Assembly: GCA_964613815.1 (NCBI GenBank) | Contig: CAZTKG010000006.1 | Location: forward strand, 10,973 to 74,972 | Direction: 5' to 3' | DNA length: 64,000 nucleotides | DNA from: an uncultured Gammaproteobacteria bacterium | GTDB lineage: Bacteria; Patescibacteriota; Patescibacteriia; UBA9934 | Part shown: positions 1,197 to 63,095 of the stretch, in pieces | Layout of the letters: each line of letters starts with the position of its first letter | Position numbering within the stretch: position 1 is the first letter of the stretch | Translations under genes and position numbers: made by a program | The notes under the pieces: model-generated | What the model was told of the DNA's origin: nothing | What the model saw: the letters and a program-made list of their open reading frames with translations, nothing else | Databases searched by the model: none

Positions 1197-1580
1197 TCAA
1201 TTTGCTTGTTTTTTGATCCAGTTGATGATTTGTTTCTTTGAGCGTTTTTTTGATGCGATGTTGATCATGAATTGTTTTGTTTGCCTTGGTGGTGTTTTGA
1301 GGTTTTTTCCATTTATGGCGAGGAATATTTTTGTTGCAAGTAGGGCGGTTCGTTTGTTTCCGTCGAAGAATGGGTGATAGTTTGTGAGTGCTTCTAGTAG
1401 CGTTGCTGCTTTGGATTCGATGGAGGGATAGAGTTCGATCTTTGTGATGGTTGTTTTGGGTTTTTCGCAGGCGGCAAAAAGAAGTCCTGGGTCACGAAGT
1501 CTTTCTTTCCCCCCTGTTTCTTCTAGGATTCGTTTGTGGATGGCGATGATTTCTTCTGGGGTGAGGTAGGTGATTTTCAT
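1197..1580 (-). CDS. doc: Fic/Doc-family toxin (death-on-curing-like)
   Basis: The 127-aa ORF carries the Doc/Fic signature HPFFDGNKRTA. Its start overlaps the stop of the upstream small antitoxin ORF by 4 nt (ATGA). Confidence 0.8.
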   Translation of the reverse strand: MKITYLTPEEIIAIHKRILEETGGKERLRDPGLLFAACEKPKTTITKIELYPSIESKAATLLEALTNYHPFFDGNKRTALLATKIFLAINGKNLKTPPRQTKQFMINIASKKRSKKQIINWIKKQAN

Positions 1581-1792
1581 GCGTCCTTTAGGGCGATGAG
1601 GAGGTCTTTGTCTTCCTCGATGAATTTGTTTGTCCAGGCGATGATTTCTGGGCGGACTGAAGGGGAGGATGGTTTTGTTTTGGAGATGTTGACGTGAATG
1701 TTGTCTCCGATTTTTGCGTTTGCTTCTCGGAGCATTGTTTTTGGGAGGATGACGGCTGCGGAGTCGCCTACTTTTATGATTTTTCTGTTCAT
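1577..1792 (-). CDS. AbrB/MazE/SpoVT-fold antitoxin partnered with the Doc toxin
   Basis: The 71-aa ORF reads MNRKIIKVGDSAAVILPKTMLRE, a swapped-hairpin AbrB/MazE-like N-terminus. It overlaps doc translationally. A TATAAT box sits immediately 5' of the ATG, suggesting a leaderless transcript. Confidence 0.7.
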   Translation of the reverse strand: MNRKIIKVGDSAAVILPKTMLREANAKIGDNIHVNISKTKPSSPSVRPEIIAWTNKFIEEDKDLLIALKDA

Positions 1793-1844: not shown

Positions 1845-2594
1845 GTGTTATGCTTTGAGCCCATGGAACGAGAAGTGAAAATTAAGATTCCTGGGACGAA
1901 GAAGTTTGTGTATGTGAAGGTTCGAGGGAGTTTGAAGAAGCCTTTGGTGGTTTTTGTGCCGGGGCTTTTTTGTCGTATCAACGAGCATTATTTTTTTAAT
2001 GGGGCGAAGTATTTTGAGAAGGCGGGGTATGCGGTTTGTCGGATGAATTTGTATAGCTATCAGAAAGACGCTCGGAAGGCGGCGGGGTGTACGTTAAAGA
2101 CGCATGCGAATGATTTGGATGTTGTTGTGAGGTATTTTCGGGGGAAGGGGGTGCGGAAGATTTTTGTTGTGGGGCATAGTAATGGTGGAGCGGTGGTTTT
2201 GCTTTCGAAGAAGAAGGATTTTGATGGGGTTTCGCTTTGGGATTCGGCGCATGAGGAGATTAGTGGGTATAAGCAGTATTCTTATGTGAAGAAATTGTCG
2301 GGGATGAGTGGATATCGATTGCGATGGGCGATTGATTATATTTTGCCGAAGAATCTTGTGGAGGAAGCAGAGACGATCAAGTATGAGCATTTGATTGAGG
2401 ATATCGTGGCGCCTGTTCAGGTCATCGTCGCGGAGAAGGGGGTGTTGGTGCCTTATGGGAAAAGATATTATGAACGGGTTAAGGGGGAGAAGGATTATCA
2501 TCTACTTAGGGGAAGTGGGCATACGTTTAATGAAGATGGGGTTGAGGAGAAATTGTTTGCGGTGACGCGGGGGTGGTTTGATAAATGGCGGTAG
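1845..2594 (+). CDS. alpha/beta-fold hydrolase
   Basis: GHSNGG nucleophile elbow (GxSxG) and a plausible acid/His downstream. The true start may be M7 at 1863. Confidence 0.6.
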   Translation: MLCFEPMEREVKIKIPGTKKFVYVKVRGSLKKPLVVFVPGLFCRINEHYFFNGAKYFEKAGYAVCRMNLYSYQKDARKAAGCTLKTHANDLDVVVRYFRGKGVRKIFVVGHSNGGAVVLLSKKKDFDGVSLWDSAHEEISGYKQYSYVKKLSGMSGYRLRWAIDYILPKNLVEEAETIKYEHLIEDIVAPVQVIVAEKGVLVPYGKRYYERVKGEKDYHLLRGSGHTFNEDGVEEKLFAVTRGWFDKWR

Positions 2595-2653
2595 GGGTTG
2601 GTGATTTTTGGGAGGTAGGCGTTTTGGGCTTCTTGTGTTACAATGTCTTACAT

Positions 2654-2875
2654 ATGGATCAGCCTACGATTACGTTGCGATTGCCGAAAAAGATTAAGAA
2701 GCGACTTGATTCTTTTGTGAAATCTGAGCAGCGGAATCGGAGTGAGGTTGTGCGGGATGCGCTTCGGCAATATTTTGCGAAAGAGGAGTTTCGGGCGCTT
2801 CGGGCGAAGATGGTTCCTCGGGCTCAGGGGCGAGGGGTGTTTACAGATGATGATGTGTTTGATCGGGTTTCATGA
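2654..2875 (+). CDS. ribbon-helix-helix (CopG/VapB-like) antitoxin
   Basis: Internal ATG at 2654 gives MDQPTITLRLPKKIKKRLD..., a typical RHH N-terminal beta-strand plus helix. It overlaps the downstream PIN gene by 4 nt. Confidence 0.65.
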   Translation: MDQPTITLRLPKKIKKRLDSFVKSEQRNRSEVVRDALRQYFAKEEFRALRAKMVPRAQGRGVFTDDDVFDRVS

Positions 2876-3267
2876 GGGTGTTTTTTGATACGAATGTTTT
2901 GATTGCGGCGTTTGTTTCGCATGGAGGGTGTGCGGATGTTTTTGTGCATGCGATGGGGCATCATTCGGTTTTTGTTTCTGAATTTGTTTTGGGGGAACTA
3001 GAGCGAGTGCTTATGAAAAAGTTTGGATATGTGGAGTCAGATGTGACGGAGGTTTTGATATTTTTAAGGAATCAGCTAGGGGTTGTAGAAAGCGAGGGGC
3101 TTAATGTGAAGATTTGTCGGGATGAGGATGATGATTTTGTGCTTGCCGGGGCATTTGTGGCTCGGGCGGATTTTCTTGTTAGTGGGGATGAGGATTTGTT
3201 GGTTCTTGAGGAGATTGAGGGGGTTCGGATTATTTCCCCGAAAGATTATTGGAAACAGTTAACGTGA
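2872..3267 (+). CDS. vapC: PIN-domain ribonuclease toxin (VapC-like)
   Basis: MRVFFDTNVLIAA... is the PIN hallmark. Acidic residues lie further along (DEDDDFVLAG; SGDEDL). The gene is 131 aa and coupled to the RHH gene. Confidence 0.8.
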   Translation: MRVFFDTNVLIAAFVSHGGCADVFVHAMGHHSVFVSEFVLGELERVLMKKFGYVESDVTEVLIFLRNQLGVVESEGLNVKICRDEDDDFVLAGAFVARADFLVSGDEDLLVLEEIEGVRIISPKDYWKQLT

Positions 3268-3271
3268 TGGT

Positions 3272-3886
3272 ATGAAATATAAGTTGGTGATGTTTGATTT
3301 TGATGGGGTGCTTGTTGATTCTTTTGAGGATGCTTATGCGACGATGGATGCGGTGACGGAGGAATCGCTTTCTCGGGAGCGGTATCGGGATATGTATTTG
3401 GGGAATATTTATGATTCGAAGGAGGTGAAGGAGGAGAGGGAGGTTGAGGATTGGGCGGAGAATTCTTTTTTTAAGGTGTATATTCCGAAGATTTTGGCGA
3501 TGGAGCCTGTAGCGGGGATGCGGGAGGTTTTGGAGGGGCTTCAGGCGTGTGGGGTGAAGATGGTGGTGGTGAGTTCTTGTGTGGATGTGGCGATTCGGGG
3601 GTGGGCGGAGAAAAATGAGTTTTTGGAATTTTTTGAGGGGATTTATGCGGTGGATGTGGATACGAATAAGGTGCGGAAGATTGGGAAGGCGCTCGGGGAT
3701 GTTGGTGTGGGTGCGGATGAGGCGGTTTTTGTGACGGATACGCTTGGGGATGTTCGGGAGGCGAGGAAGGCTGATGTGGAGAGTGTTGCGGTGGGGTGGG
3801 GGTTTCATGGAGAGGATCGGTTGTTTTTGGATGGGGAGGTTCGGATGGTGCATAGTGCGGGTGAGCTTGGGGAAATTTTGAGGTAG
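3272..3886 (+). CDS. HAD-superfamily hydrolase (phosphatase)
   Basis: MKYKLVMFDFDGVLVDS is HAD motif I (DxDG). The C-terminal GD..D motif reads TDTLGDVREA. Confidence 0.75.
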   Translation: MKYKLVMFDFDGVLVDSFEDAYATMDAVTEESLSRERYRDMYLGNIYDSKEVKEEREVEDWAENSFFKVYIPKILAMEPVAGMREVLEGLQACGVKMVVVSSCVDVAIRGWAEKNEFLEFFEGIYAVDVDTNKVRKIGKALGDVGVGADEAVFVTDTLGDVREARKADVESVAVGWGFHGEDRLFLDGEVRMVHSAGELGEILR

Positions 3887-3902
3887 ATTTTTGAGAAAAA
3901 AA

Positions 3903-3945
3903 TGGACCCCTGCCAACCAATATGGTCGGCAGGGGTTTCACGGTG
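3903..3945. terminator. hairpin (cccctgcc..ggcagggg) flanked by A7 on one side and a U-run on the other
   Basis: Minus strand: cccctgccgaccatattggttggcagggg followed by tccattttttttt. Plus strand: a7 then hairpin then tttcac. Confidence 0.5.
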
Positions 3946-4602
3946 GGGACTCGCGCACTACCGCGATCGCGTTGCTCGCCAATTTTACGGCAAGCTGCCC
4001 TTTTCGGTGCCTGTGATTTTGGGCTTCCATGACTCTTTTGGTCGGGGCAGTGACTCCCGACTGATCGCATTCAGATTGCCGCATGTCGCGACAACCCTAT
4101 ACCCTTGAATGACCGTAAGTTGCCATTCCATCCAGCTCTTTCGAGTGCTGAACGGCCCTGACTTACCAGGGTGCAGTTTTTGCTGCTCCGTCGCCTTCGC
4201 GACTACATCGCGTTGGCACTTCGTAACCTATCCTTATTCGCCTACCAGGGGCGAAGTGTTGATTCATGCTTTTCCAGCCTTTCCACCTTGGTTGTCGGTG
4301 GACTTAGGCGCTTGGGGATGTTTGTCCGGCACGTCTCTCGACCTCTGTAGGGCGTCCCTATTTTTTTTAGCGGGAAGAACTGTTGCATCCGTTTTCGCGT
4401 TGAGGTGAAGAGGTTTCCCTCGTTCTGGGTGGTTTTCCTCAGATAACCTTTTCTGCTCTATGGCGTCCACCGACGACATTGCCTAAGCATCTCCTAAGGA
4501 TGCAGGCGGCAGGTAGGTGCGGGGTATGCGTGAGAGTTTTTTCAGCGTGACTGCTGCCTGGTGCTCTCGCTCAATTCGGTCGGTTTTCTTCAGGTGAACT
4601 GT

Positions 4603-4626
4603 GTGATTGTTTATCACACAGTTGTA
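4603..4626. promoter_or_regulatory. perfect 9-bp inverted repeat (ctgtgtgat-N5-atcacacag) at +25 to +50 of the promoter above; candidate operator
   Basis: Sequence tgtgtgattgtttatcacaca is seen directly, immediately downstream of the predicted TSS. Confidence 0.45.
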
Positions 4627-4654
4627 TAAATGCCTTAACATCTACACGACGTCG

Positions 4655-4690
4655 ATAATATAGCATATTTTGTTAAGTTTGTCAAGTGTT
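4655..4690 (-). promoter_or_regulatory. sigma70-type promoter: TTGACA, 17 nt, TATATT
   Basis: Reverse complement of 4655-4690 reads cacTTGACAaacttaacaaaatatgcTATATTatcgacg, a perfect -35, 17-nt spacer and a near-perfect -10. Confidence 0.55.
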
Positions 4691-4786
4691 TTTTGTTGGT
4701 TTTTTGTAAAAAGGTTAATGAAAGTATTGTTTTTTATGTTTTTTTGTAAAGTTAAAACCGTGCGTCTGCACGGCTTGATGGAGGTG

Positions 4787-5181
4787 TTTATGTGAGGGCG
4801 GCGGCGATGAGGGTCGTTACGCCGGTCACGGTGATAAACGTCCATTTTCTGTTTTCACGAGGCTTGTGGATTTCCTTGTGAATCAGGGTGCTGAAGATTT
4901 GGGAGAGGATCATCAGTGGGAGGATGTATCCTGCGAGGCCGGAGATGGTGAGTCCCCAGATGCAGGTGCCGATCCCGACGGCAGTTGGGATGATTGGATG
5001 GTTGGCGAAGATATGTTCGCCGATGTGGTTTCTGCGTGCGTGCGCGGTGAATGTGATGAGTTCGAGACCGCTCAGGGTGAGAAGGAGTGATGGGTCTTGC
5101 GTGATGAGGGTGCAGAGTACGATGAGGGGGTCCCATCCAGAGGATGAAATGACCCCAACGGTCGATCCATCTGCTTGTCAT
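4787..5181 (-). pseudogene. small polytopic membrane protein gene with an apparent frameshift
   Basis: A strong SD-plus-ATG (aaGGAGAcaacATG) at 5181 opens a frame that becomes Arg/His/Pro-rich nonsense after about 10 codons. The +1 frame instead encodes a continuous hydrophobic protein (...GIGTCIWGLTISGLAGYILPLMILSQIFSTLIHK...) running to a TAA at 4787. A hairpin + T-run terminator follows at about 4755-4785. Confidence 0.4.
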
Positions 5182-5305
5182 GTTGTCTCCTTGGTTGTTT
5201 GTAGGGATACCATACTGTTGATTTTGTTATTTGTTAAGTATCTTGGTATTTTCGTTGATTTTTTTGTCAAAATGCATTAGGGTTTGGGTGTCGAATTTTC
5301 GGCTT

Positions 5306-5701
5306 ATGCTCTTTGGAGTGGGCTTGTCACTGCGGTTGCTGGTTGCTTTTGATAATTGGCCTTCGTTCAATGCTGATTTGGATGATGCTGAAACGATGCT
5401 CAATTTGGATGAGGCGGTTACGCGGATTCTGGTTGATATGGGTATTGGAGGGATTTCTGATGGGAGCCAGGTGCTTGTGAGCGCCGGGACTCGTCAAATT
5501 CGTTTGGATCGTCGGATTCTGGTTGTGCGGATTGAGGATCTTGCAGGGAAGCTTCAGATGCGGCTTGCGGAGTATATGGAGCTTCGTGATCGAGTCGGTG
5601 CTGCTGTTCGTGCTGATCTTCCTGGATGGACTTCGGAGATGGTTTTGACTTCTGTGGAGGTTGATGTGACGCGTGTTGGTCGTCTTTCTCGCGCTAGTTA
5701 G
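5306..5701 (+). CDS. hypothetical protein
   Basis: ORF with protein-like composition. The start was chosen at the internal ATG (MLFGVGLSL...), because the upstream part overlaps the probable promoter of the divergent membrane-protein gene. Confidence 0.35.
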   Translation: MLFGVGLSLRLLVAFDNWPSFNADLDDAETMLNLDEAVTRILVDMGIGGISDGSQVLVSAGTRQIRLDRRILVVRIEDLAGKLQMRLAEYMELRDRVGAAVRADLPGWTSEMVLTSVEVDVTRVGRLSRAS

Positions 5702-5754
5702 CGCGATCTTGCCCGGTTTCCGGGCGATTCTTTTTTTGGGTATACTCTGCGTAT

Positions 5755-6822
5755 ATGTATTCTAAAATGTTTTTTACGATGATCGCCGGTTTGGTGATTT
5801 TGGTTGTACTTGTGATTGTTGCGTTGTTTTTGCCAGGGATGAGTGACGAGGAGTTTTATGATGATGAGATTGATGTGGTTCCTTATGGGGAGGATGGGTT
5901 GGGAGATGTTGATGAGGAGGTAGAGATTGAAGATGAGGGGGTGGGCTTGAGCGCGGGGACGGTTCGTGAAAGTTCTTTGACTGTTCGTGTTGATGAGGGT
6001 TATGACGTGGATGAGTTGGAGAAATTTGAAGGATTTATTGTTAATCAGACGACGGGGGATCGGCAGTCGGTTCGTGTTTATAAGCCGTCTGTTGGCATTG
6101 ATTTGCCACTTGTTGTTTTTGTTCCTGGTGGGAGTGGAAGTGGGGCTGGTTTTGAACGTCCTGGGCCGAATGGAGATAGTGATGCGGAGGCTTTGGTTCG
6201 AGAGGGGGTGGTGGTTGTGATTTATGATCCGCTTGGTACTGGCGAAAGTGAGGGGGATTATGATTATCAGGGGTATGCTGATCAGGATGGGATTGCGGAT
6301 ATTTTATTTGGCGTGAAGGAGTTTGATTATGTCGACGATGCAAATATTGGTATTGCGAGTTTTTCTTATGGTGTGACCGGAGCGGCTGGGGTGCTTGCGC
6401 GGTATCCGGGGATGGGGATGAAGTTTTGGTCAGATTGGGAGGGGCCTTCCAGTCGGTTTTATACAACGGTTGAGTGTGGAGAAGGAAGGGCTGCTACTGG
6501 GCGAGATGGGGGTCCGGGATCATTTGATTGTGATGATGAGGAGCATTGGATTGGGCGTGAGGCTGCTGTGAGCGCGTTTGATGTGCATGTTGATTATTAC
6601 TGGCGCGTGCAGCAAGAGAATGATCATGTGCAGGATTCGTATGGGCATACGCTTGAGATGGTGGAGGCTCTTGTTTTGAATGATGTGGTGGATTTGGTGA
6701 GGGTAAACGATGGGAAGGTGAATGTGGTTTATGAAGAGGATGATGAAGTCCCTGTGGTGGAAAATGGAAATTTTTATGGCTTGTATGTGATGTCGAATAT
6801 TCTTGAAATGATTGATATGTAA
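5755..6822 (+). CDS. membrane-anchored alpha/beta-hydrolase-like protein with an acidic linker
   Basis: N-terminal TM helix, DE-rich linker, and a GIASFSYGVTGAAG nucleophile elbow. A bidirectional terminator lies at 6825-6850. Confidence 0.6.
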   Translation: MYSKMFFTMIAGLVILVVLVIVALFLPGMSDEEFYDDEIDVVPYGEDGLGDVDEEVEIEDEGVGLSAGTVRESSLTVRVDEGYDVDELEKFEGFIVNQTTGDRQSVRVYKPSVGIDLPLVVFVPGGSGSGAGFERPGPNGDSDAEALVREGVVVVIYDPLGTGESEGDYDYQGYADQDGIADILFGVKEFDYVDDANIGIASFSYGVTGAAGVLARYPGMGMKFWSDWEGPSSRFYTTVECGEGRAATGRDGGPGSFDCDDEEHWIGREAAVSAFDVHVDYYWRVQQENDHVQDSYGHTLEMVEALVLNDVVDLVRVNDGKVNVVYEEDDEVPVVENGNFYGLYVMSNILEMIDM

Positions 6823-7356: not shown

Positions 7357-7593
7357 ATGGCTAGAAAAACAAAGATTGTTTCTGTGTCACTTCCGGAGAA
7401 GATGGCAAAAGCGATTGATTTACTTTCTGAGGAAATGGATCAGACTCGAAGTGAGCTGATTCGTGATGCTGTGCGAGATTATTTGATTGATGCTCATCGA
7501 GATCGGGAGAGATTTTTAGAGATTTATGCTGCGACGCGTGGTGAGAAAATGGTTCCATTGGAAGAGTTTCGAAAGGAGTGTGGGTTGATTTAG
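7357..7593 (+). CDS. ribbon-helix-helix antitoxin (ParD/CopG-like)
   Basis: MARKTKIVSVSLPEKMAKAIDLLSEE..., an RHH fold signature. The stop sits 1 nt from the toxin start. Confidence 0.7.
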   Translation: MARKTKIVSVSLPEKMAKAIDLLSEEMDQTRSELIRDAVRDYLIDAHRDRERFLEIYAATRGEKMVPLEEFRKECGLI

Positions 7594-7594
7594 T

Positions 7595-7864
7595 ATGTAT
7601 CGGGTTGTTCTTTCCTCCCATTATCGACGGGCGTTTAAAAAGCTGAATTCTCGGGATCAGAAGCGCATTGATCGCGCTGTTTCGCTACTCGTTGATGATC
7701 CGTTTTTATGTGTGAATATTGAGTCAATTAAGGGGGTTCGAGAAAAAGCGTTTCGTCTTCGGGTTGGTCGTTATCGGGTTGTTTATTTTGTGATTACGAA
7801 AGATTTTGTGGTCGAAGTTTTGGGATTGTTTTTGAAGAAGGGTAAGGAGGATTATCAGATGTGA
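7595..7864 (+). CDS. relE: RelE/ParE-family toxin
   Basis: 89 aa with FRLRVGRYRVVYFV, the RelE core motif. Confidence 0.75.
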   Translation: MYRVVLSSHYRRAFKKLNSRDQKRIDRAVSLLVDDPFLCVNIESIKGVREKAFRLRVGRYRVVYFVITKDFVVEVLGLFLKKGKEDYQM

Positions 7865-7879
7865 TATCCTGCGTGCATT

Positions 7880-9184
7880 ATGGCAGGAAAGATTAAGATT
7901 AGTAAGGATTTTAAACGCGCGTTTCAGTTGATGAATGAAACGGATTTGCATTTGTTTTTGACCGGGCGTGCTGGGACGGGAAAGTCGACGCTTTTGACGT
8001 ATTTTCGGAAGCATACGAAAAAACAGATTGCGATTTTGGCGCCTACGGGGGTGGCGGCGCTTAATGTGAAGGGGCAGACGATTCATTCTTTTTTTGGGTT
8101 TAAGCCGAGTGTGACGAAGGAGACGGTGCGGCGAGCGAAGAAGGATCAGCTTGATATGTTTGATAAATTGGAAGCGATTGTGATTGATGAGATTTCGATG
8201 GTGCGAGCGGATCTTTTGGATTGTGTTGATCGAGCGCTTCGGCTTAATCGGGCGAAGCCAGATATTCCGTTTGGTGGGGTGCAAATGATTTTTATTGGAG
8301 ATTTGTATCAGTTGCCGCCGGTGCTTACGGATCAGGAGCGGTTTATTTATGAGATGATGTATCAATCGCCGTACTTTTTTTCTGCGTATGCGCTTGGGGA
8401 TTTTGATATTACGGTTGTTGAATTGAAAAAAGTTTATCGGCAGAAGGATAAGGATTTTGTGAATCTGTTGAATCGGGTTCGGGATAATCAGCTCCTTAGT
8501 GATGATTTGGATGTTTGGAATGGGCGGCATGATCCGTTTTTTGATCCTGAGGAGCATGGGGAGGCGGTGCATTTGACGACGACGAATAAGATGGCGCAGT
8601 TGCGGAATGATTTTGAGTTGAGGCGACTTGAGGGGGAGGAGTGGGAGTTTAAGGGGGTGACGAGTGGGGAGTTTGATTCGCGGCGTGTGCCGGCGCCGGC
8701 GACGTTGAAATTGAAAGCTGGTAGCCGCGTGATGTTTACGTGTAATGATGTGCATCGACGGTGGGTGAATGGGTCGATTGGGACGGTTGTTTCTGTGAAG
8801 AAGGATCGGCCGCTTGCGAAGCATCCGACGGTTCGGGTGGAGCTCACTACAGGTGATGAGGTGAGAGTGGAGCCGCATACGTGGAATACCTATACGCATG
8901 TATTGAATCAGTCGAATGGGGATGTGGAGACGTCGCCTATTGGGTCTTACACGCAGTTTCCGCTTATGCTTGCTTGGGCGGTGACGATTCACAAGAGTCA
9001 GGGGAAGACGTTTGATAAGGTTTTGGTGGATGTGGGGTATGGGACGTTTGCGCATGGGCAGTTGTATGTGGCGCTCAGTCGATGTACGACGTTGAAGGGG
9101 ATTACGCTTCGGAAGCCGTTTCGGGCGAAGGATGTGATTTTGGATGATCGGGTGGTGGATTTTGTGAAGGCTTATACGGAATAA
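7880..9184 (+). CDS. Pif1/RecD-family 5'-3' DNA helicase
   Basis: Walker A (TGRAGTGKST), a Walker B DExx-like block (IVIDEISMV), and the C-terminal block LYVALSRCTTLKGITL typical of Pif1/RecD2/TraA-like helicases. Confidence 0.8.
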   Translation: MAGKIKISKDFKRAFQLMNETDLHLFLTGRAGTGKSTLLTYFRKHTKKQIAILAPTGVAALNVKGQTIHSFFGFKPSVTKETVRRAKKDQLDMFDKLEAIVIDEISMVRADLLDCVDRALRLNRAKPDIPFGGVQMIFIGDLYQLPPVLTDQERFIYEMMYQSPYFFSAYALGDFDITVVELKKVYRQKDKDFVNLLNRVRDNQLLSDDLDVWNGRHDPFFDPEEHGEAVHLTTTNKMAQLRNDFELRRLEGEEWEFKGVTSGEFDSRRVPAPATLKLKAGSRVMFTCNDVHRRWVNGSIGTVVSVKKDRPLAKHPTVRVELTTGDEVRVEPHTWNTYTHVLNQSNGDVETSPIGSYTQFPLMLAWAVTIHKSQGKTFDKVLVDVGYGTFAHGQLYVALSRCTTLKGITLRKPFRAKDVILDDRVVDFVKAYTE

Positions 9185-19515: not shown

Positions 19516-19995
19516 GTGTACGTTTTTCTTTGTCTTTTGTTTTTGGCTTGTGGATTTGACGGTGGTGATACTGCCTCTGCTGATACGGCGGCGGTGACGG
19601 TCACGATGACGACAGGGAGTGGGTCGACAGGTTCAGTGACGACTTCTTCGACATCTGCTACGACTACTACGCTTGTGACCTCTACGACGTCTGGGACTTC
19701 ATCGACAGGTGGTGTTCCTGAGCGTTATGGTTCTGAGGCGGAGGAGATTCCGCCGGGGACGATGGAATGTTTGTGGGAGTATGTGAAGGCGCAGACGGAG
19801 TACTACTGCGCGGATACGCCGGGGATGTGGGCGTGTCAGGGGTATGCGGATCGTGACGGCGATGGGTATGGGGATGCGAACGACGGGGGGAGTCGGGAGG
19901 ATTACTCGTACATCTGTCCTGGGGAGGAGCTTCGTGAGGGGTACACGCTTGGTCCGGATACGGATCGGGATGACTGGGACGCTTTGGTGCATTGA
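19516..19995 (+). CDS. putative lipoprotein with a Thr/Ser-rich linker and a Cys-containing acidic C-terminal domain
   Basis: MYVFLCLLFLACGFDGG has a signal peptide with lipobox L-A-C. A promoter (TTGACA-17-TATGTT) lies at 19451-19485. Confidence 0.55.
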   Translation: MYVFLCLLFLACGFDGGDTASADTAAVTVTMTTGSGSTGSVTTSSTSATTTTLVTSTTSGTSSTGGVPERYGSEAEEIPPGTMECLWEYVKAQTEYYCADTPGMWACQGYADRDGDGYGDANDGGSREDYSYICPGEELREGYTLGPDTDRDDWDALVH

Positions 19996-23847: not shown

Positions 23848-24078
23848 TTAGCGGGGGAGGGAGTTGGTGACGATCACTTCGTGGCGCTGGCTGAAGGCCA
23901 GGTTTGCGATGTGACCGAGGAGGGCTCCGGACGCGAGGGCGAGCCAGGAGATTGCCTTGAGGTTTGCGTTGTCGATCTGGATGTCGGCGAGGTTGATGAT
24001 GCCCTGCACGGATCCCAGGAGGACGATACCGAAGGTGAAAGAAAGGATGATCGTACGGGTCAGGTCGTTGGGCTGCAT
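23848..24078 (-). CDS. small membrane protein (hypothetical)
   Basis: 76 aa with two hydrophobic segments. It has its own promoter carrying the conserved upstream module (24112-24171). Confidence 0.4.
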   Translation of the reverse strand: MQPNDLTRTIILSFTFGIVLLGSVQGIINLADIQIDNANLKAISWLALASGALLGHIANLAFSQRHEVIVTNSLPR

Positions 24079-24111
24079 TTACTGCTCCAGCTTCAGGTTG
24101 TCAGCGGTTGA

Positions 24112-24171
24112 ATAGTAGCATATTTTTTGGGTTTTGTCAACCGCGTAAAGACAATAAATTGTCCACGTGGC
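24112..24171 (-). promoter_or_regulatory. promoter (TTGACA-17-TACTAT) with the conserved upstream module GCCACGTG-GACAATttATTGTC-TTTAC-GCGG
   Basis: Reverse complement reads GCCACGTGgacaatttattgtcTTTACgcggTTGACAaaacccaaaaaatatgcTACTAT. Confidence 0.5.
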
Positions 24172-42838: not shown

Positions 42839-42914
42839 GCGGCGTTAGCTCAGTTGGTAGAGCAGATGGCTCTTAACCATTTGGTCGGAGGTTCGAGTCC
42901 TCCACGCCGCACCA
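42839..42914 (+). tRNA. tRNA-Lys (anticodon CUU)
   Basis: Cloverleaf parsed by hand. Acceptor is gcggcgt/acgccgc, D arm gctc-agttggta-gagc, anticodon stem gatgg/ccatt with loop ctCTTaa, T arm ggagg-ttcgagt-cctcc, then encoded CCA. Confidence 0.85.
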
Positions 42915-43053
42915 CAGGCTTGTTAAAATGTCCTGAGATCGTCCCGAATCTCCGTTCCTCGACTACGTACTTGTATGTACGTTTTACTGCGGTACTCGAT
43001 TCGAAACGATCTCAGAACATTTTTCCTGCGCCTGTCTTGCTGATTACATTTAT

Positions 43054-43131
43054 GCGGCGTTAGCTCAGTTGGATTAGAGCGTCTGGCTTCGGACCAGAAG
43101 GTCGGGGGTTCGAGCCCCTCACGCCGCACCA
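43054..43131 (+). tRNA. tRNA-Arg (anticodon UCG)
   Basis: The acceptor and D arm have the same first 19 nt as tRNA-Lys. Anticodon stem is tctgg/ccaga with loop ctTCGga, T arm ggggg-ttcgagc-ccctc, then encoded CCA. Confidence 0.8.
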
Positions 43132-59924: not shown

Positions 59925-60074
59925 GCCGAAGTTGCACTCTGGGTATGGTGCGACGTCGGGTCGGGACACCTTTAGCGTCCATACCGTTAATTTTGGCTAC
60001 AGGATGGATGGGTGAGGAGCGGCGGTGTCATATCCTCCGCCTCCTTACGCACCATACCCAGAGTGCAACTTCGG
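59925..60074. repeat. 30-bp perfect inverted repeat (gggccgaagttgcactctgggtatggtgcg / cgcaccatacccagagtgcaacttcggccc) enclosing a 90-nt GC-rich loop, 25 nt upstream of leuS
   Basis: Seen directly. Both arms are exact reverse complements. Confidence 0.75.
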
Positions 60075-60098
60075 CCCGTTTTGATTATTTATATTTGT

Positions 60099-63095
60099 AT
60101 GCAATTTGATCATAAGAAGATTGATAAGAAATGGCAGGAGCGGTATGAGGCTGAGGAGCCTTTTAAGGCTTTGGATGATTCTGATAAGGAGAAGGTTTAT
60201 CATCTTGTTGAGTTTCCTTATCCGAGTGGAGCGGGGCTTCATGTTGGGCATGTTCGGAGTTATACAGCGCTTGATATTGTGAGTCGGAAAGCTCGGATGT
60301 TGGGAAAGGAAGTTTTGTATCCGATTGGATGGGATGCGTTTGGGTTGCCGACGGAGAATTATGCGATTAAGACGGGGCGGTTGCCTGCGGAGGTGACGAA
60401 GGAAAATATTGATACGTTTCGGCGTCAGCTCAAGGCGCTTGGGATTGGGTTTGACTGGAGTCGGGAAGTGGATACGACGGATCCGAATTATTATAAGTGG
60501 ACGCAGTGGATGTTTTTGCAGTTTTTTGATGCGGGGCTTGCGTATAAGGCGACAGTGCCGATTAATTGGTGTTTGAGTTGTAAGATTGGGCTTGCGAATG
60601 AGGAGGTGGTTGCTGGGGCTTGTGAGCGTTGTGGGGGTGAAGTTGAGAAGCGAGATAAAGAGCAGTGGATGATTCGGATTACGGATTATGCGGAGCGGCT
60701 TTTGGAAGGGTTGGATGAGGTGGATTATTTGCCGCAGATTGCGAAGCAGCAGTGGGATTGGATTGGGAAGAGTGAGGGATGTGATATTGATTTTGTGGTT
60801 TCTGGTGAGGGAGTGGAAGAGATTGTTGTGGCGACGGGGAATGAGGCGAAGGTTGCGCGGGTGAAGAAATTGCTTGGGCGTGTTTGTGCTGGAGTGAAGG
60901 TTTTCTCGATTAGCGATGCTGGACTTGAAAAGGTTGAGGTTGAGGAGGATGGGTCGCTTGTGGAGAATGCGCGGAAGAAGGCAGTGGCTTATATTGGAAA
61001 AACTGATAAGCCTGTGCTTGGGATGGATACGGCGTTTTATATTGATGGGGAGGAGATTGATCCTTTGGCGGTGAAGCGGAATGCTTTGGGAGGTGCGGAT
61101 GAGAAGGATTTTTCGCAGGAGGAGATTGCGGAGAAGATGCATGCGTTTTATCGGAAGATTGCGGAAAAGCATGGTGGGGATGTTGAGGCGTATTTTGAGG
61201 ATGCGAGTGTGTTGATTTTTGCTGATGGGAGTGAGCGGGTTGAGGTGAATCAGCGGGCGGTTATTTTGACATCGGAAGCGGTTGGGGAGCGGGAGTTGTA
61301 TTTTCCTGTGCGGAATATGTATAAGGTTGCGGCGACGGGGAAGTATGTTGCTGATTCTGATGAGGAGGATGAGTTTGTTGAGCTTGTAAGTTTGATGGGT
61401 GCCTTGCGGAATGTTTGTGCGCCGAGTTTGTGTGTGTTTACGACGCGGCCGGATACGCTTTTTGGGGCGACGTATATGGTTTTGGCGCCGGAGCATCCTA
61501 TGGTTGACGCGTTGACGATTGATGATCAGAAAAAGGTAGTTGATGATTATGTGAAGGCGGCTGGGAGGATTTCTGATCGGGATCGGGGGGATGCTGGTCG
61601 GGAGAAGACGGGGGTGTTTACGGGGGCGTATGTGATTAATCCTGTGAATGATGAAAAGATTCCTGTTTGGGTGGCTGATTATGTCTTGATGGGATATGGG
61701 ACTGGAGCGATTATGGCGGTGCCGGGGCATGATGAGCGGGATTGGGCGTTTGCGAAGAAATTTGAAATTGATATTCGGGAGGTGGTTTCTGGAGGTGATG
61801 TTGATGAGGAGGCGTATGTTGGTGATGGGGAGATTGTGAATAGTGATTTTTTGGATGGGAAGCCTGTAGCGGAAGCGAAGGAATTGATGATGGAGCGACT
61901 TGTGGAGATGGGGGTTGGGCGTGCGAAGGTGAATTATAAACTTCGGGATTGGGTGTTTAGTCGGCAGCGGTATTGGGGGGAGCCTATTCCTTTGGTGCAT
62001 TGTGAGGATTGTGGATGGGTGCCGGTTTCTGATGGGGAGTTGCCTGTTGTGCTTCCTGTGGTTGAGAAATATGAGCCTACGGATAGTGGGGAGAGTCCGC
62101 TTGCGGCGATTGAGGAGTGGGTGCAGACATCGTGTCCTGCGTGTGGAGAGGGGGCTCGGCGGGAGACGGATACGATGCCGAATTGGGCTGGGTCTAGTTG
62201 GTATTTTTTGCGGTATGTTGATGCGCGGAATGATGAGGAGTTTGCATCAAAGGAAAAGCTTGCTGCATGGATGCCGGTGAATTTGTATAACGGGGGGATG
62301 GAGCATACGACGCTTCATTTGTTGTATTCTCGGTTTTGGAATATGTTCTTGTTTGACCGAGGATTGGTTCCGACGAGCGAACCTTATGCGAGGCGACATA
62401 GTCATGGGATGGTGCTTGCGCATGATGGATTGAAGATGAGTAAGTCGAAGGGGAACACGGTGAATCCGGATGAGATTTTGGAAGGACTTGGAGCGGATGC
62501 GCTTCGGATGTACGAGATGTTTATGGGGCCGTTTGAAGATGCGATTCCTTGGAACGAGCAGGGGCTTGTGGGGGTTCGGCGATTTTTGGATAAGGTTTGG
62601 CGGTTGCAGGAGAAGGTATCGGATAGCGAAGATGAGAGTGTGACTCGCGCGGTTCATAAGATGGTGAAGAAGGTTGGAGAGGATGTTGATGGGATGCGGT
62701 TTAATACGGCGGTGAGTGCGTTTATGATTTGTGTGAATGTGATTCAGGAGGCGGGGAGTGTGACGAAGGATTCGCTTGTGATGATGTTGACGGCTTTGAA
62801 TCCGTTTGCGCCGCATGTGACGAATGAGATGTATGAGATTTTGGGAGGAGAGGGACTTTTGGAGAAGTCTGCGTGGCCTGTTTATGATGAAGGGTTGGTG
62901 GTTGATGATGAGGTGACGGTTGCGGTGCAGGTGAATGGGAAGTTGCGTGGGAAGATTGTGGTGCGTGTGGATGCTGCGGAGGTTGATGTGGTTGAGACGG
63001 CGAAGGGGGAGGAGAATGTGGTGAAGTTTTTGGAGGGGGTTGATATTAAGAAGACGGTTTATGTGAAGGGGAGGTTGGTGAATTTTGTGGTTTGA
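60099..63095 (+). CDS. leuS: leucyl-tRNA synthetase carrying an about 210-aa Ham1/ITPase-like insertion
   Basis: HVGHVRSY (HIGH), KMSKS, Zn-knuckle cysteines and the CP1 editing core (FTTRPDTLFGAT...GTGAIMAVPGHDERD). Between the Zn module and CP1 lies EIVVATGNEAKVARVKKLL...VENARKKAVAYIGKTDKPVLGMD..., matching the RdgB/Ham1 signature VLATGNxGKxxE...ENAxxKA...PxLgDDSG. Confidence 0.9.
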   Translation: MQFDHKKIDKKWQERYEAEEPFKALDDSDKEKVYHLVEFPYPSGAGLHVGHVRSYTALDIVSRKARMLGKEVLYPIGWDAFGLPTENYAIKTGRLPAEVTKENIDTFRRQLKALGIGFDWSREVDTTDPNYYKWTQWMFLQFFDAGLAYKATVPINWCLSCKIGLANEEVVAGACERCGGEVEKRDKEQWMIRITDYAERLLEGLDEVDYLPQIAKQQWDWIGKSEGCDIDFVVSGEGVEEIVVATGNEAKVARVKKLLGRVCAGVKVFSISDAGLEKVEVEEDGSLVENARKKAVAYIGKTDKPVLGMDTAFYIDGEEIDPLAVKRNALGGADEKDFSQEEIAEKMHAFYRKIAEKHGGDVEAYFEDASVLIFADGSERVEVNQRAVILTSEAVGERELYFPVRNMYKVAATGKYVADSDEEDEFVELVSLMGALRNVCAPSLCVFTTRPDTLFGATYMVLAPEHPMVDALTIDDQKKVVDDYVKAAGRISDRDRGDAGREKTGVFTGAYVINPVNDEKIPVWVADYVLMGYGTGAIMAVPGHDERDWAFAKKFEIDIREVVSGGDVDEEAYVGDGEIVNSDFLDGKPVAEAKELMMERLVEMGVGRAKVNYKLRDWVFSRQRYWGEPIPLVHCEDCGWVPVSDGELPVVLPVVEKYEPTDSGESPLAAIEEWVQTSCPACGEGARRETDTMPNWAGSSWYFLRYVDARNDEEFASKEKLAAWMPVNLYNGGMEHTTLHLLYSRFWNMFLFDRGLVPTSEPYARRHSHGMVLAHDGLKMSKSKGNTVNPDEILEGLGADALRMYEMFMGPFEDAIPWNEQGLVGVRRFLDKVWRLQEKVSDSEDESVTRAVHKMVKKVGEDVDGMRFNTAVSAFMICVNVIQEAGSVTKDSLVMMLTALNPFAPHVTNEMYEILGGEGLLEKSAWPVYDEGLVVDDEVTVAVQVNGKLRGKIVVRVDAAEVDVVETAKGEENVVKFLEGVDIKKTVYVKGRLVNFVV

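What the first reader, a model, noticed from the sequence alone, without database searches (positions are those of the whole stretch)
3887..4790. ORF-poor locus with a consensus promoter, operator palindrome and terminators: candidate large ncRNA
About 900 bp of normal GC content carries no credible ORF. The only ORFs are of 68-99 aa and compositionally odd. On the minus strand a textbook promoter (TTGACA-17-TATATT, 4655-4690) is followed at about +25 by a perfect 9-bp inverted repeat (ctgtgtgat/atcacacag, 4603-4626). The transcript would end at a hairpin + U9 terminator (3903-3940), giving about 750 nt. On the plus strand an equally good terminator (taggg-cgtc-ccta + T8, 4337-4367) exists, so a 465-nt plus-strand RNA is also possible. 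I could not match RNase P, tmRNA, SRP or 6S consensus blocks by eye.
Basis: seen in the sequence. Interest (0 to 1): 0.6.

Follow-up and report, generated by a model that had tools for sequence, protein, structure and literature searches.

The report
Orphan 750-nt structured RNA gene candidate
A roughly 750-base stretch in an uncultured marine CPR (Patescibacteria) bacterium looks like a strongly transcribed gene for a large folded RNA that matches no known RNA family, but no relatives could be found, so the case rests on this one sequence.

Summary
Window 3887-4787 is the largest stretch without coding signal in the 64 kb apart from the tRNA locus.

On the minus strand it forms one tidy transcription unit:
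- the best sigma-70 promoter in the window (TTGACA-17-TGc-TATATT, 4685-4657);
- a predicted start near 4650;
- two stable 5' hairpins;
- a 14-bp terminator stem plus U7 (3936-3896).

The new and strongest evidence is compositional. The genome has an extreme G>C skew on the + strand (mean +0.37), and other intergenic DNA shares it (+0.14 to +0.52). The skew falls to -0.01 exactly between start and terminator, as it does in the two tRNA genes.

The 3' 286 nt fold significantly only on the minus strand (z -3.9 versus -1.2). That domain also holds a candidate 6-bp kissing loop. Unpaired positions are 52% A.

No ORF has host codon usage, and the 71-aa ORF has no homologue among 1.84 billion proteins. 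Rfam gives nothing, even with lax filters.

Every homologue search failed and all nine assemblies are near-identical, so covariation cannot be tested.

Verdict: a probable (about 0.6) new orphan large non-coding RNA of unknown function. The palindrome is more likely an RNA 5' hairpin than an operator. The plus-strand RNA alternative is weak.

The parts
3897..4650 (-). Predicted primary transcript, about 754 nt. It runs from the predicted start (G 4650, 7 nt after the -10 hexamer) to the U-tract of the terminator.
   Evidence: Boundaries set by the promoter and terminator. GC skew is -0.01 across 3900-4650 (G 197, C 200), and 3951-4650 is the lowest 700-nt skew window in the 64 kb. Full-length MFE z is -6.3 on minus against -3.5 on plus with 60 shuffles, and -8.1 against -3.7 with 20 shuffles.
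4657..4685 (-). Sigma-70 promoter: -35 TTGACA (4685-4680), 17-nt spacer ending in TGc (extended -10), -10 TATATT (4662-4657).
   Evidence: It matches 11 of 12 positions plus TG and is the best site in the window. Only 3 sites reach >=11/12 in 128 kb, against 0.47 expected.
4690..4750 (-). A-rich upstream region (UP-element-like on the RNA strand). It holds a duplicated 21-nt element (4690-4710 / 4730-4750) and a weaker promoter-like site (4750-4723).
   Evidence: (repeat D2). GC is 0.22-0.35 and the skew is back to +0.5 to +0.7. A role as UP element is inferred only.
4624..4647 (-). 5' hairpin 1: a 10-bp stem (GUGUAGAUGU/GCAUUUAUAC) with a UAAG loop. It has 3 G.U pairs, so it forms only in the minus-strand RNA.
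   Evidence: mean pair probability 0.97; 61-nt 5' end: z -4.9, MFE frequency 0.61.
4597..4623 (-). It is a perfect 11-bp stem with an AAACA loop, at +28 to +54.
   Evidence: I5; pair probability 0.96; unique in the window.
4226..4596 (-). 5'/central region with an ill-determined fold. It contains the 52-aa and 71-aa ORFs and the A8 tract plus small hairpin (4369-4347) that reads as a T8 terminator on the plus strand. A possible long-range helix joins 4518-4502 and 4245-4226.
   Evidence: Folding is not significant on its own (z -1.8 minus, -1.1 plus). Skew is about 0 to +0.25. Helices are listed and the inverted repeat I4.
3940..4225 (-). 3' domain of about 286 nt: a chain of about ten hairpins with 0-5-nt linkers, including a GAAA-capped hairpin. 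A closing helix joins 4191-4188 and 3943-3940.
   Evidence: Minus strand: MFE -109.9, z -3.87, 0 of 200 shuffles as good, centroid close to MFE. Plus strand: -94.8, z -1.18, 23 of 200. Helix probabilities are 0.9-0.98.
4161..4166 (-). Loop GUAAGU of hairpin 4171-4156, candidate kissing-loop partner A.
   Evidence: It is the only loop-loop Watson-Crick complementarity of >=5 nt among 18 hairpin loops. A match of >=6 nt arises in 0.7% of loop shuffles.
4115..4120 (-). Loop ACUUAC of hairpin 4127-4108, candidate kissing-loop partner B. It is perfectly complementary to 4166-4161.
3896..3936 (-). Intrinsic terminator: a 14-bp stem (one G.U, which is an A-C mismatch on the plus strand), a 3-nt loop, then CCA-U7. 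It lies 10 nt from the stop codon of the convergent HAD gene (3884-3886).
   Evidence: I3: 93% complementary as DNA; pair probability 0.96.
4754..4773 (-). Boundary feature: a small terminator hairpin (6-bp stem, AGAC loop, U4) that ends the upstream same-strand membrane-protein gene. It separates that gene from the RNA promoter.
   Evidence: Read from the sequence. It is weak, so read-through cannot be excluded.

Best explanation
**What it is.** Window 3897-4650 (minus strand) is a stand-alone gene for a non-coding RNA of about 750 nt in a marine Patescibacteria (CPR) bacterium.

**Shown in silico.**
- It has its own near-consensus sigma-70 promoter with an extended -10, and a strong intrinsic terminator.
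- It carries no coding signal.
- Its G/C balance is held at parity against a very strong genomic mutational skew, as in the tRNA genes.
- Its 3' 286 nt fold into a well-defined multi-hairpin domain only on this strand.

**Inferred.**
- The RNA is abundantly and probably constitutively transcribed.
- Two 5' hairpins that begin at +4 and the 3' terminator hairpin protect its ends from RNase Y/J-type and 3' exonucleolytic decay. That 5' stem-loops act this way is established for bacterial RNAs in general.
- The 3' domain packs into a compact tertiary fold, suggested by abutting helices, a GAAA tetraloop and a 6-bp kissing loop between hairpins 4171-4156 and 4127-4108.
- It therefore most likely acts as a structural or scaffold RNA, that is, an RNP component or a self-assembling RNA in the manner of OLE, ROOL or GOLLD. 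A short-range antisense regulator is less likely.
- The 5'/central 370 nt may be a loosely structured linker or partner-binding region.

**Unknown.** The cellular function.
For: 1. **Composition.** GC skew is -0.01 over 3900-4650. The flanks jump to +0.74 on the left (3801-3900) and +0.73 on the right (4651-4750). 3951-4650 is the lowest 700-nt skew window in the 64 kb, and the next lowest is the tRNA locus. Twelve other intergenic gaps have skew +0.14 to +0.52 and GC 0.37-0.56, and the spacer next to the promoter has +0.52 and GC 0.31; the tRNA genes have skew +0.05 and +0.08 and GC about 0.6; the unit has GC 0.53.
2. **Promoter and terminator.**
3. **No coding signal**. The 71-aa ORF has only itself among 1.84 billion representative proteins. 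Pfam, NCBIfam and PHROGs gave nothing credible for the ORFs and stop-free translated segments tested. All three stop codons are used in confident genes, so recoding is not an escape.
4. **Strand-specific folding.** The 3' domain gives z -3.87 (0 of 200 shuffles) on minus and -1.18 on plus, and is 15 kcal/mol more stable on minus. The full length gives -6.3 against -3.5. The 5' hairpins give z -4.9. High-probability helices carry several G.U pairs that would be A-C mismatches on the other strand.
5. **Loop composition.** Unpaired positions are 52% A and show C>G, the host's bias direction. This fits long residence with helices kept by selection.
6. **Kissing-loop candidate**, p about 0.007.
7. 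**Constancy.** The unit is identical in nine assemblies of this population drawn from nine sequencing samples. The only nearby SNP (4675) lies in the promoter spacer.
Against: - No homologue was found by any route, so there is no covariation and no evidence of conservation beyond one near-clonal population.
- There are no expression data.
- Without the terminator and the 5' hairpins the core gives only z -2.8, and the 5'/central 370 nt are not significantly structured.
- In 150-nt windows the region is not the most extreme by z-score in the window.
- A skew-neutral island could also be recently acquired DNA.
- The locus lies in an accessory, toxin-antitoxin-rich neighbourhood next to a frameshifted gene. 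Non-functional remnants are plausible in such a place.
Confidence: 0.6

Rival explanations
1. Recently acquired or decaying foreign DNA. This would be a remnant of a mobile element or a pseudogene from a donor without the host's skew. It would happen to carry, or to have landed next to, a promoter and a terminator, and the RNA would have no function.
For: The neighbourhood is accessory: three toxin-antitoxin pairs and a frameshifted membrane-protein gene directly upstream. There are no homologues anywhere. The neutral skew could reflect donor composition. The 5'/central part lacks significant structure.
Against: - The island's edges coincide, to within about 10 nt, with the predicted transcript ends rather than with repeats. 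No convincing terminal repeats or duplications were found; only low-complexity A/T matches appeared.
- No translated segment matches any protein family, and no frame has coding signal.
- Predicted loops already carry the host's C>G and A>U bias while the helices stay balanced.
- Folding of the 3' domain is strand-specific.
- Neighbouring accessory genes all carry the host skew.
Confidence: 0.14
2. An mRNA for one or two orphan small proteins. The candidates are the 71-aa ORF 4264-4479 and possibly the 52-aa ORF 4483-4641 in the same frame. The transcript would have a structured 5' leader and a long structured 3' UTR. A dual-function RNA is a variant of this idea.
For: JGI's gene caller called the 71-aa ORF. 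An AGGAG lies 11 nt upstream of its AUG. The skew of the 5' half (about +0.1) resembles that of minus-strand genes.
Against: - Codon scores are -0.18 and -0.09, against +0.72 +/- 0.26 for 71-codon pieces of real minus-strand genes.
- The ORF has no homologue among 1.84 billion representative proteins and no family hit.
- The 11-nt spacing is long compared with 5-6 nt at two neighbouring genes.
- A small-protein mRNA gives no reason for 420 nt of G=C-balanced, well-folded sequence after the stop codon.
Confidence: 0.1
3. The functional transcript is on the plus strand. It would be a structured RNA or 3' UTR of about 430-480 nt that reads through from the HAD gene (3272-3886) and ends at the hairpin plus T8 at 4347-4369.
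For: The T8 terminator-like site exists. On the plus strand the 3906-3936 hairpin is followed by only three U residues, so read-through from the HAD gene is plausible. The plus-strand MFE of the whole region is as low as the minus-strand MFE.
Against: - There is no plus-strand promoter-like site in 3000-6000.
- The plus-strand z-score for 3940-4225 is -1.18, with 23 of 200 shuffles as good.
- On the plus strand the loops would be U-rich rather than A-rich.
- The stem is only 6 bp, and such sites are common by chance.
- This reading leaves the best promoter in the window, on the other strand, unexplained.
Confidence: 0.06
4. A regulatory DNA region. The 11-bp palindrome would be a protein operator, for example for one of the nearby ribbon-helix-helix proteins, and would control a transcript whose body does not matter.
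For: The inverted repeat is perfect, unique in the window and just downstream of the start. RHH genes lie at 2585-2875 and 7357-7593.
Against: - The palindrome lies at +28 to +54, not over the promoter.
- It directly abuts a hairpin that can form only in RNA, so the pair looks like a 5' RNA cap structure.
- There is no second copy of the site near any RHH gene.
- This reading does not explain the 750-nt compositional island.
Confidence: 0.04

Closest known systems
OLE RNA (Rfam RF01071), about 600 nt, from anaerobic or extremophilic Firmicutes
   Same: It is a large stand-alone non-coding RNA with many hairpins and A-rich loops, and it is highly expressed. The ole gene lies beside a small membrane-protein gene (oapA). 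Here too a small membrane-protein gene (4788-5181) sits directly upstream on the same strand. OLE uses kissing loops and A-minor contacts (PMC12286853).
   Different: There is no covariance-model match even at E<=10 with lax filters. The phylum is different. The neighbouring membrane gene has its own terminator, is frameshifted, and matches no Pfam family. No conserved OLE sequence blocks are present.
ROOL (RF03087) and GOLLD (RF01998) RNAs, about 580-800 nt, which form RNA-only nanocages
   Same: The size class is the same and the function is likewise unknown. No obvious protein partner is encoded alongside. They have multi-domain hairpin architectures in which kissing loops and A-minor contacts build tertiary and quaternary structure, and ROOL includes a poorly conserved disordered linker (PMC12286853). 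That resembles the contrast here between the ill-defined 5'/central part and the compact 3' domain.
   Different: There is no covariance-model match. ROOL is encoded in phages and prophages, often near tRNA islands, whereas this locus has no phage genes and nothing similar turned up in IMG/VR seed scans or phage records. Oligomerisation is untested.
Stable-RNA genes of the same genome (tRNA-Lys and tRNA-Arg, 42839-43131)
   Same: They share the compositional signature: raised GC and near-zero GC skew in a strongly skewed genome. They also have a near-consensus promoter upstream.
   Different: The candidate is ten times longer and has no tRNA-like element.
Housekeeping RNAs: RNase P RNA, tmRNA, SRP RNA and 6S RNA
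   Same: They are stand-alone, strongly expressed structured RNAs expected once per bacterial genome.
   Different: There is no Rfam match at any threshold. ARAGORN finds no tmRNA at default settings. At relaxed settings it makes only implausible 'permuted tmRNA' calls on the plus strand, one with a 4-aa tag. No P4-type pairing partner for the GAGGAAA-like stretch was seen by eye. At 750 nt the RNA is about twice the length of RNase P RNA or tmRNA.

Membership tests
OLE / ROOL / GOLLD / HEARO / raiA (large bacterial ncRNA families in Rfam) | A match to the family covariance model (conserved sequence blocks plus secondary structure). | tested here: not met
   cmscan against all 4227 Rfam 15 families found only the two tRNAs at gathering threshold. 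At E<=10 over 1.5 kb, 371 nt and 461 nt (the laxest filters) it found only terminator look-alikes and noise.
OLE / ROOL / GOLLD-like 'ornate' RNAs (functional analogy) | Covariation-supported, complex multi-helix structure with conserved tertiary contacts. | not testable with these tools
   No homologue was retrievable. All nine assemblies are >=99.8% identical across the shared region, and the transcript itself is invariant. Only single-sequence support exists.
Bacterial RNase P RNA (types A and B) | Conserved P4 helix and CR-I to CR-V blocks, with a covariance-model match. | tested here: not met
   No RNaseP_bact_a/b hit at E<=10.
tmRNA | A tRNA-like domain with a 3' CCA-type end and a tag-peptide reading frame. 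| tested here: not met
   ARAGORN at default settings finds only the two tRNAs. Relaxed thresholds give spurious permuted calls on the plus strand, one with a 4-aa 'tag'. There is no Rfam tmRNA hit.
Group I / group II introns and small ribozymes | Catalytic core models (group II domain V/VI, group I P3-P9, and so on). | tested here: not met
   No hit at E<=10. The unit has its own promoter and terminator and does not interrupt a gene.
Independent sigma-70 transcription unit with an intrinsic terminator | -35 and -10 hexamers at 16-18 nt spacing upstream, and a G+C-rich hairpin plus U-tract downstream, on the same strand. | tested here: met
   Promoter: 11/12 plus TG, 4685-4657. Terminator: 14-bp stem plus U7, 3936-3896. 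This is sequence evidence only; transcription has not been observed.
Protein-coding gene (including small proteins and pseudogenes) | Host-like codon usage in some frame, a ribosome-binding site, and homologues or a family match. | tested here: not met
   Codon scores are <=+0.15 in every frame and 40-codon window. The 71-aa ORF is an orphan among 1.84 billion representatives. There are no Pfam, NCBIfam or PHROG matches. Its AGGAG lies at an 11-nt spacing.
Guide or template RNAs of mobile or defence systems (IscB/TnpB omega RNA, retron msr-msd, type III antitoxin repeats, CRISPR) | An adjacent effector gene (IscB, TnpB, RT, Cas or ToxN) or tandem repeats. | tested here: not met
   Neighbours are HAD, PIN/RHH, alpha/beta-hydrolases, ParE/RHH and PIF1. 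There is no RT, IscB, TnpB or Cas gene within +/-6 kb. No direct or inverted repeat families beyond short low-complexity matches were found.

The most novel reading that the evidence does not exclude
This is the founding member of a new class of large (>700 nt) 'ornate' bacterial RNA confined to an uncultured marine Patescibacteria lineage. It would be a compactly folded and possibly self-assembling or catalytic RNA. It would be kept by selection in a streamlined CPR genome and driven by the strongest promoter in its 64-kb neighbourhood.
Probability: 0.3. Interest if true: 0.7.

Novelty: new variant of a known kind. Interest (0 to 1): 0.48.

Why it matters
Only a handful of bacterial non-coding RNA classes exceed 500 nt. 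OLE, ROOL and GOLLD are among the few, and each has turned out to be structurally remarkable. None is known from the Candidate Phyla Radiation. CPR genomes are small and compact, so 750 non-coding bases behind a near-perfect promoter are unlikely to be idle. If real, this RNA would be a new target for RNA structural biology and a clue to CPR-specific biology.

A second, more general point concerns method. In genomes with extreme strand skew, islands of G=C parity mark structured-RNA genes. Here they pick out the tRNAs, the spacer between the tRNAs, and this locus. This gives a cheap single-genome detector for non-coding RNAs in lineages too isolated for comparative methods.

Tried and rejected
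**Known-family searches**
- Rfam at gathering and at lax E-value thresholds found nothing.
- ARAGORN at default and relaxed settings found nothing credible.

**DNA similarity**
- blastn against the phage and plasmid collections gave no match.

**Synteny route**
- The next HAD homologues are only <=40% identical. Their contigs (P0002, P0003, P0006, P0007) hold no comparable gap.
- PIF1 homologues at 62-67% identity (P0048, P0049, P0051) show no synteny.

**Strain variants**
- Variants of the same population (P0001, P0171) have an identical RNA.

**Six-frame composite query**
- A composite 'pseudo-protein' sent to the 5.8-billion-protein index returned nothing.
- This result is uninformative.

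**Pseudo-protein seed scans (search for related loci)**
- Scans of genome contigs, metagenome contigs and viral contigs gave no confirmed hit.
- Even the source contig was not returned from the metagenome collection.

**Exact 17-mer scans**
- The 17-mers were chosen from the G/U-rich, against-bias segments.
- They gave 44 metagenome and 59 genome loci, all chance matches; nhmmer found nothing at E<=10.

**Ideas considered and rejected**
- Alternative genetic code: all three stop codons are in use.
- Replication origin: the cumulative skew shows no turn.
- Defence-system or guide RNA: no effector gene lies nearby.

**Failed run**
- The first whole-window z-score scan timed out. It was repeated at lower cost.
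Full report
**Setting**

The window is chromosomal DNA of a bacterium. It encodes GyrA, LeuRS, IF-2, FtsH, RNase Y, ribosomal protein S1, TsaD and a type IV pilus ATPase. The named relatives of its PIF1 helicase and HAD hydrolase are Patescibacteria/CPR MAGs, mainly 'Candidatus Uhrbacteria' and the Parcubacteria group, at 55-67% and <=40% identity respectively. The same sequence occurs in nine marine metagenome assemblies, on contigs of up to 579 kb.

The genome has an extreme compositional asymmetry. GC skew on the + strand averages +0.37 (sd 0.12 in 700-nt windows) and never changes sign across the 64 kb. Genes on both strands share it, and so does intergenic DNA (+0.14 to +0.52).

**Checking the observation**

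- *Promoter.* The minus-strand promoter is TTGACA (4685-4680), a 17-nt spacer, then TATATT (4662-4657). A TG sits at the extended -10 position.
  - I scanned both strands of the whole window. Only three sites reach 11/12 matches, and block shuffles give 0.47 +/- 0.63.
  - The other two sit just upstream of the MazE-like/Fic operon and of the RecQ gene.
  - The two 10/12 sites with TG precede an ORF at 19516 and a small gene at 24078.
  - Near-consensus promoters in this genome are therefore rare and mark real transcription units. This one is the best of them.
- *Palindrome.* It is a perfect 11-bp inverted repeat (4597-4607 / 4613-4623), unique in the window.
- *Minus-strand terminator.* It has a 14-bp stem (3936-3906) followed by U7.
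- *Plus-strand terminator.* The hairpin plus T8 exists (4347-4369). Its stem is only 6 bp, and sites of that quality are expected by chance.
- *Upstream gene.* The same-strand gene ending at 4788 has its own small terminator hairpin (4773-4758 plus U4). The unit is therefore separately bounded.

**Is it coding?**

No. I trained codon log-odds models on confident genes of each strand.

- Real genes score +0.39 to +0.89 per codon. The ORFs in the region score -0.09 to -0.73, and the 71-aa ORF that JGI called scores -0.18.
- Taking the best of three frames in sliding 40-codon windows, neither strand exceeds +0.15 anywhere in 3880-4660.
- The adjacent frameshifted membrane-protein gene, which was not in the training set, scores 0.7-1.06. 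A frameshifted host pseudogene would therefore have been detected.
- The 71-aa ORF matches only itself among 1.84 billion representative proteins.
- The ORFs and stop-free translated segments I tested matched nothing credible in Pfam, NCBIfam or PHROGs.
- TAA, TAG and TGA all terminate confident genes, so an alternative code is not the answer.
- A crude gene call gives 88% coding density. It makes 3887-5230 the largest gap in the window, ahead of the tRNA locus.

**The compositional island**

This is the key new result. In 100-nt steps the skew is +0.74 at 3801-3900. It drops to -0.05 at 3901-4000 and stays between -0.23 and +0.25 up to 4650. It returns to +0.73 at 4651-4750.

Over 3900-4650 there are 197 G and 200 C. 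The 700-nt window 3951-4650 has the lowest skew in the 64 kb. The next lowest non-overlapping window is the tRNA locus.

| Region | GC skew | GC content |
|---|---|---|
| RNA unit, 3900-4650 | -0.01 | 0.53 |
| tRNA-Lys and tRNA-Arg genes | +0.05, +0.08 | about 0.6 |
| Other intergenic gaps (12) | +0.14 to +0.52 | 0.37-0.56 |
| Spacer next to the promoter, 4651-4787 | +0.52 | 0.31 |

(All values.)

The edges of the island coincide with the predicted transcript ends. Unconstrained non-coding DNA in this genome is skewed, and the transcribed unit is not. The simplest reading is selection for base pairing, which needs G and C in equal measure.

In the predicted ensemble, unpaired positions are 52% A. 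They show C>G and A>>U, which is the host's bias direction on that strand, while paired positions are balanced. That pattern fits long residence in this genome with helices maintained by selection. It fits a recent import less well.

**Folding and strand**

| Segment | Minus strand | Plus strand |
|---|---|---|
| Full length | z -8.1 (20 shuffles); -6.3 (60) | z -3.7; -3.5 |
| Core without terminator and 5' hairpins | z -2.8 | z -2.0 |
| 5'/central 370 nt (4226-4595) | z -1.8, not significant | z -1.1 |
| 3' domain (3940-4225) | z -3.87, 0/200 shuffles, MFE -109.9, centroid -108.6 | z -1.18, 23/200, MFE -94.8, centroid -79.9 |
| 5' end, 61 nt | z -4.9, MFE frequency 0.61 | not tested |

Much of the full-length signal comes from the end hairpins. 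The signal is concentrated in the 3' domain, where the fold is well defined on the minus strand only.

- High-probability helices there, and in the first 5' hairpin, carry two or three G.U pairs each. The terminator stem has one, which is an A-C mismatch on the plus strand.
- The two 5' hairpins begin at +4.
- Among 18 predicted hairpin loops there is exactly one loop-loop Watson-Crick complementarity of 5 nt or more. It is a perfect 6-mer between the loops of two hairpins (4166-4161 GUAAGU and 4120-4115 ACUUAC) that flank a GAAA-capped hairpin with no linker nucleotides. Shuffled loops give a match of >=6 nt in 0.7% of trials.
- In raw energy the minus strand of flanking genes hardly folds at all: -1 to -13 kcal/mol per 150 nt, against -35 to -63 here.

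**What it is not**

- Rfam 15 gives only the two tRNAs at gathering threshold. At E<=10 it gives nothing credible, even when only 371 or 461 nt are submitted so that the filters are laxest. That excludes detectable membership of OLE, ROOL, GOLLD, HEARO, raiA, RNase P, tmRNA, SRP, 6S, group I and II introns, and the riboswitch families.
- ARAGORN finds no tmRNA. Relaxed settings give only implausible permuted calls.
- The neighbours are hydrolases, three toxin-antitoxin pairs, a PIF1 helicase and unannotated proteins. There is no RT, IscB, TnpB or Cas gene and no PADLOC system that would suggest a guide or template RNA.

**Search for relatives**

All routes failed, and this is the main weakness of the case.

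- The flanking HAD gene has no homologue above 40% identity outside the population. Contigs of its best homologues, and of PIF1 homologues at 62-67% identity, show no comparable locus.
- All nine assemblies are >=99.8% identical over the shared 2.6-14 kb (L006 reaches only the RNA's terminal 116 nt), and the RNA is invariant. The one nearby SNP (4675) is in the promoter spacer.
- Seed-and-confirm scans with translated 'pseudo-proteins' of the RNA found nothing in GTDB species genomes, JGI metagenomes or IMG/VR.
- Two exact 17-mer scans returned 103 loci, all chance matches by nhmmer.
- The phage and plasmid collections have no match.
- One composite six-frame protein search was technically uninformative.

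Covariation, the standard proof of a structured RNA, is therefore out of reach with these tools.

**Interpretation**

The most likely explanation (about 0.6) is a stand-alone, strongly transcribed non-coding RNA of about 754 nt. Hairpins protect both ends. The 3' 286 nt form a compact multi-hairpin domain, and the 5'/central part is loosely structured.

By analogy, not by homology, it resembles the large 'ornate' RNAs OLE, ROOL and GOLLD. Those build tertiary and quaternary architecture from kissing loops and A-minor contacts, and ROOL contains a poorly conserved, disordered linker (PMC12286853). I therefore favour a structural or scaffold role over antisense regulation. That step is inference.

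The rivals, in order of weight:
- non-functional foreign or decaying DNA (0.14);
- an mRNA for an orphan small protein (0.10);
- a plus-strand RNA or 3' UTR (0.06);
- an operator-centred regulatory region (0.04).

**Novelty and score**

If real, this is a new RNA family within a known category, large bacterial non-coding RNAs of unknown function. It would be the first such candidate I am aware of in CPR bacteria; that statement rests on my own knowledge, and two literature searches surfaced none.

It is an orphan with no comparative or expression support, so interest is moderate (0.48). The skew-parity criterion that singles it out may be more broadly useful.

Noticed in passing
window 4788-5181 (-), run of five G on the + strand at 5126-5130: A small membrane-protein gene has a good ribosome-binding site (AAGGAGA-5 nt-ATG at 5181). 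It needs a +1 shift at a C5 run to reach the long hydrophobic reading frame that ends at 4788. Coding score downstream of the shift is 0.7-1.06. The frameshift is identical in every assembly that covers the site, so it is a pseudogene, a programmed frameshift or a systematic homopolymer error.
   Followed up: partly
window 42915-43053 (+), between tRNA-Lys (42839-42914) and tRNA-Arg (43054-43131): The 139-nt spacer between the two tRNAs forms a long imperfect hairpin. It gives the most extreme 150-nt folding z-score in the window (-10.8) and has a negative GC skew (-0.15). No Rfam family matches. It could be a processing element or a small RNA.
   Followed up: partly
whole window 1-64000: G>C skew on the + strand is extreme and uninterrupted (mean +0.37, up to +0.7), and T>A as well. 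It affects genes on both strands and intergenic DNA. It relaxes only in structured-RNA genes.
   Followed up: partly
window 60012-63095 (+): The leucyl-tRNA synthetase (1027 aa) has a Pfam Ham1p_like match (E 1.5e-7) at residues 271-358. The stretch lies between the N-terminal catalytic-domain match and the editing domain, which is an unusual insertion.
   Followed up: no
window 23848-24140 (-): A 76-aa hydrophobic ORF (24078-23848) has a GGAG ribosome-binding site and its own terminator. It sits behind the promoter TTGACA-17-TACTAT (with TG). That promoter is 80% identical over 30 nt to the promoter of the RNA candidate.
   Followed up: partly
window 8643-8666 (PIF1 gene 7880-9184): One strain (ENA ERZ23499077, locus L119) carries an in-frame 24-bp deletion in the PIF1 helicase gene, giving 426 aa instead of 434 aa. 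Together with two SNPs at 3786 and 3792 in the HAD gene, it is the only variation seen between that strain and the window.
   Followed up: no
window 1197-1792 (-), 2585-3267 (+), 7357-7864 (+): Three toxin-antitoxin pairs (MazE-like/Fic, RHH/PIN and RHH/ParE-like) lie within 8 kb around the candidate RNA. The area looks like an accessory region.
   Followed up: partly
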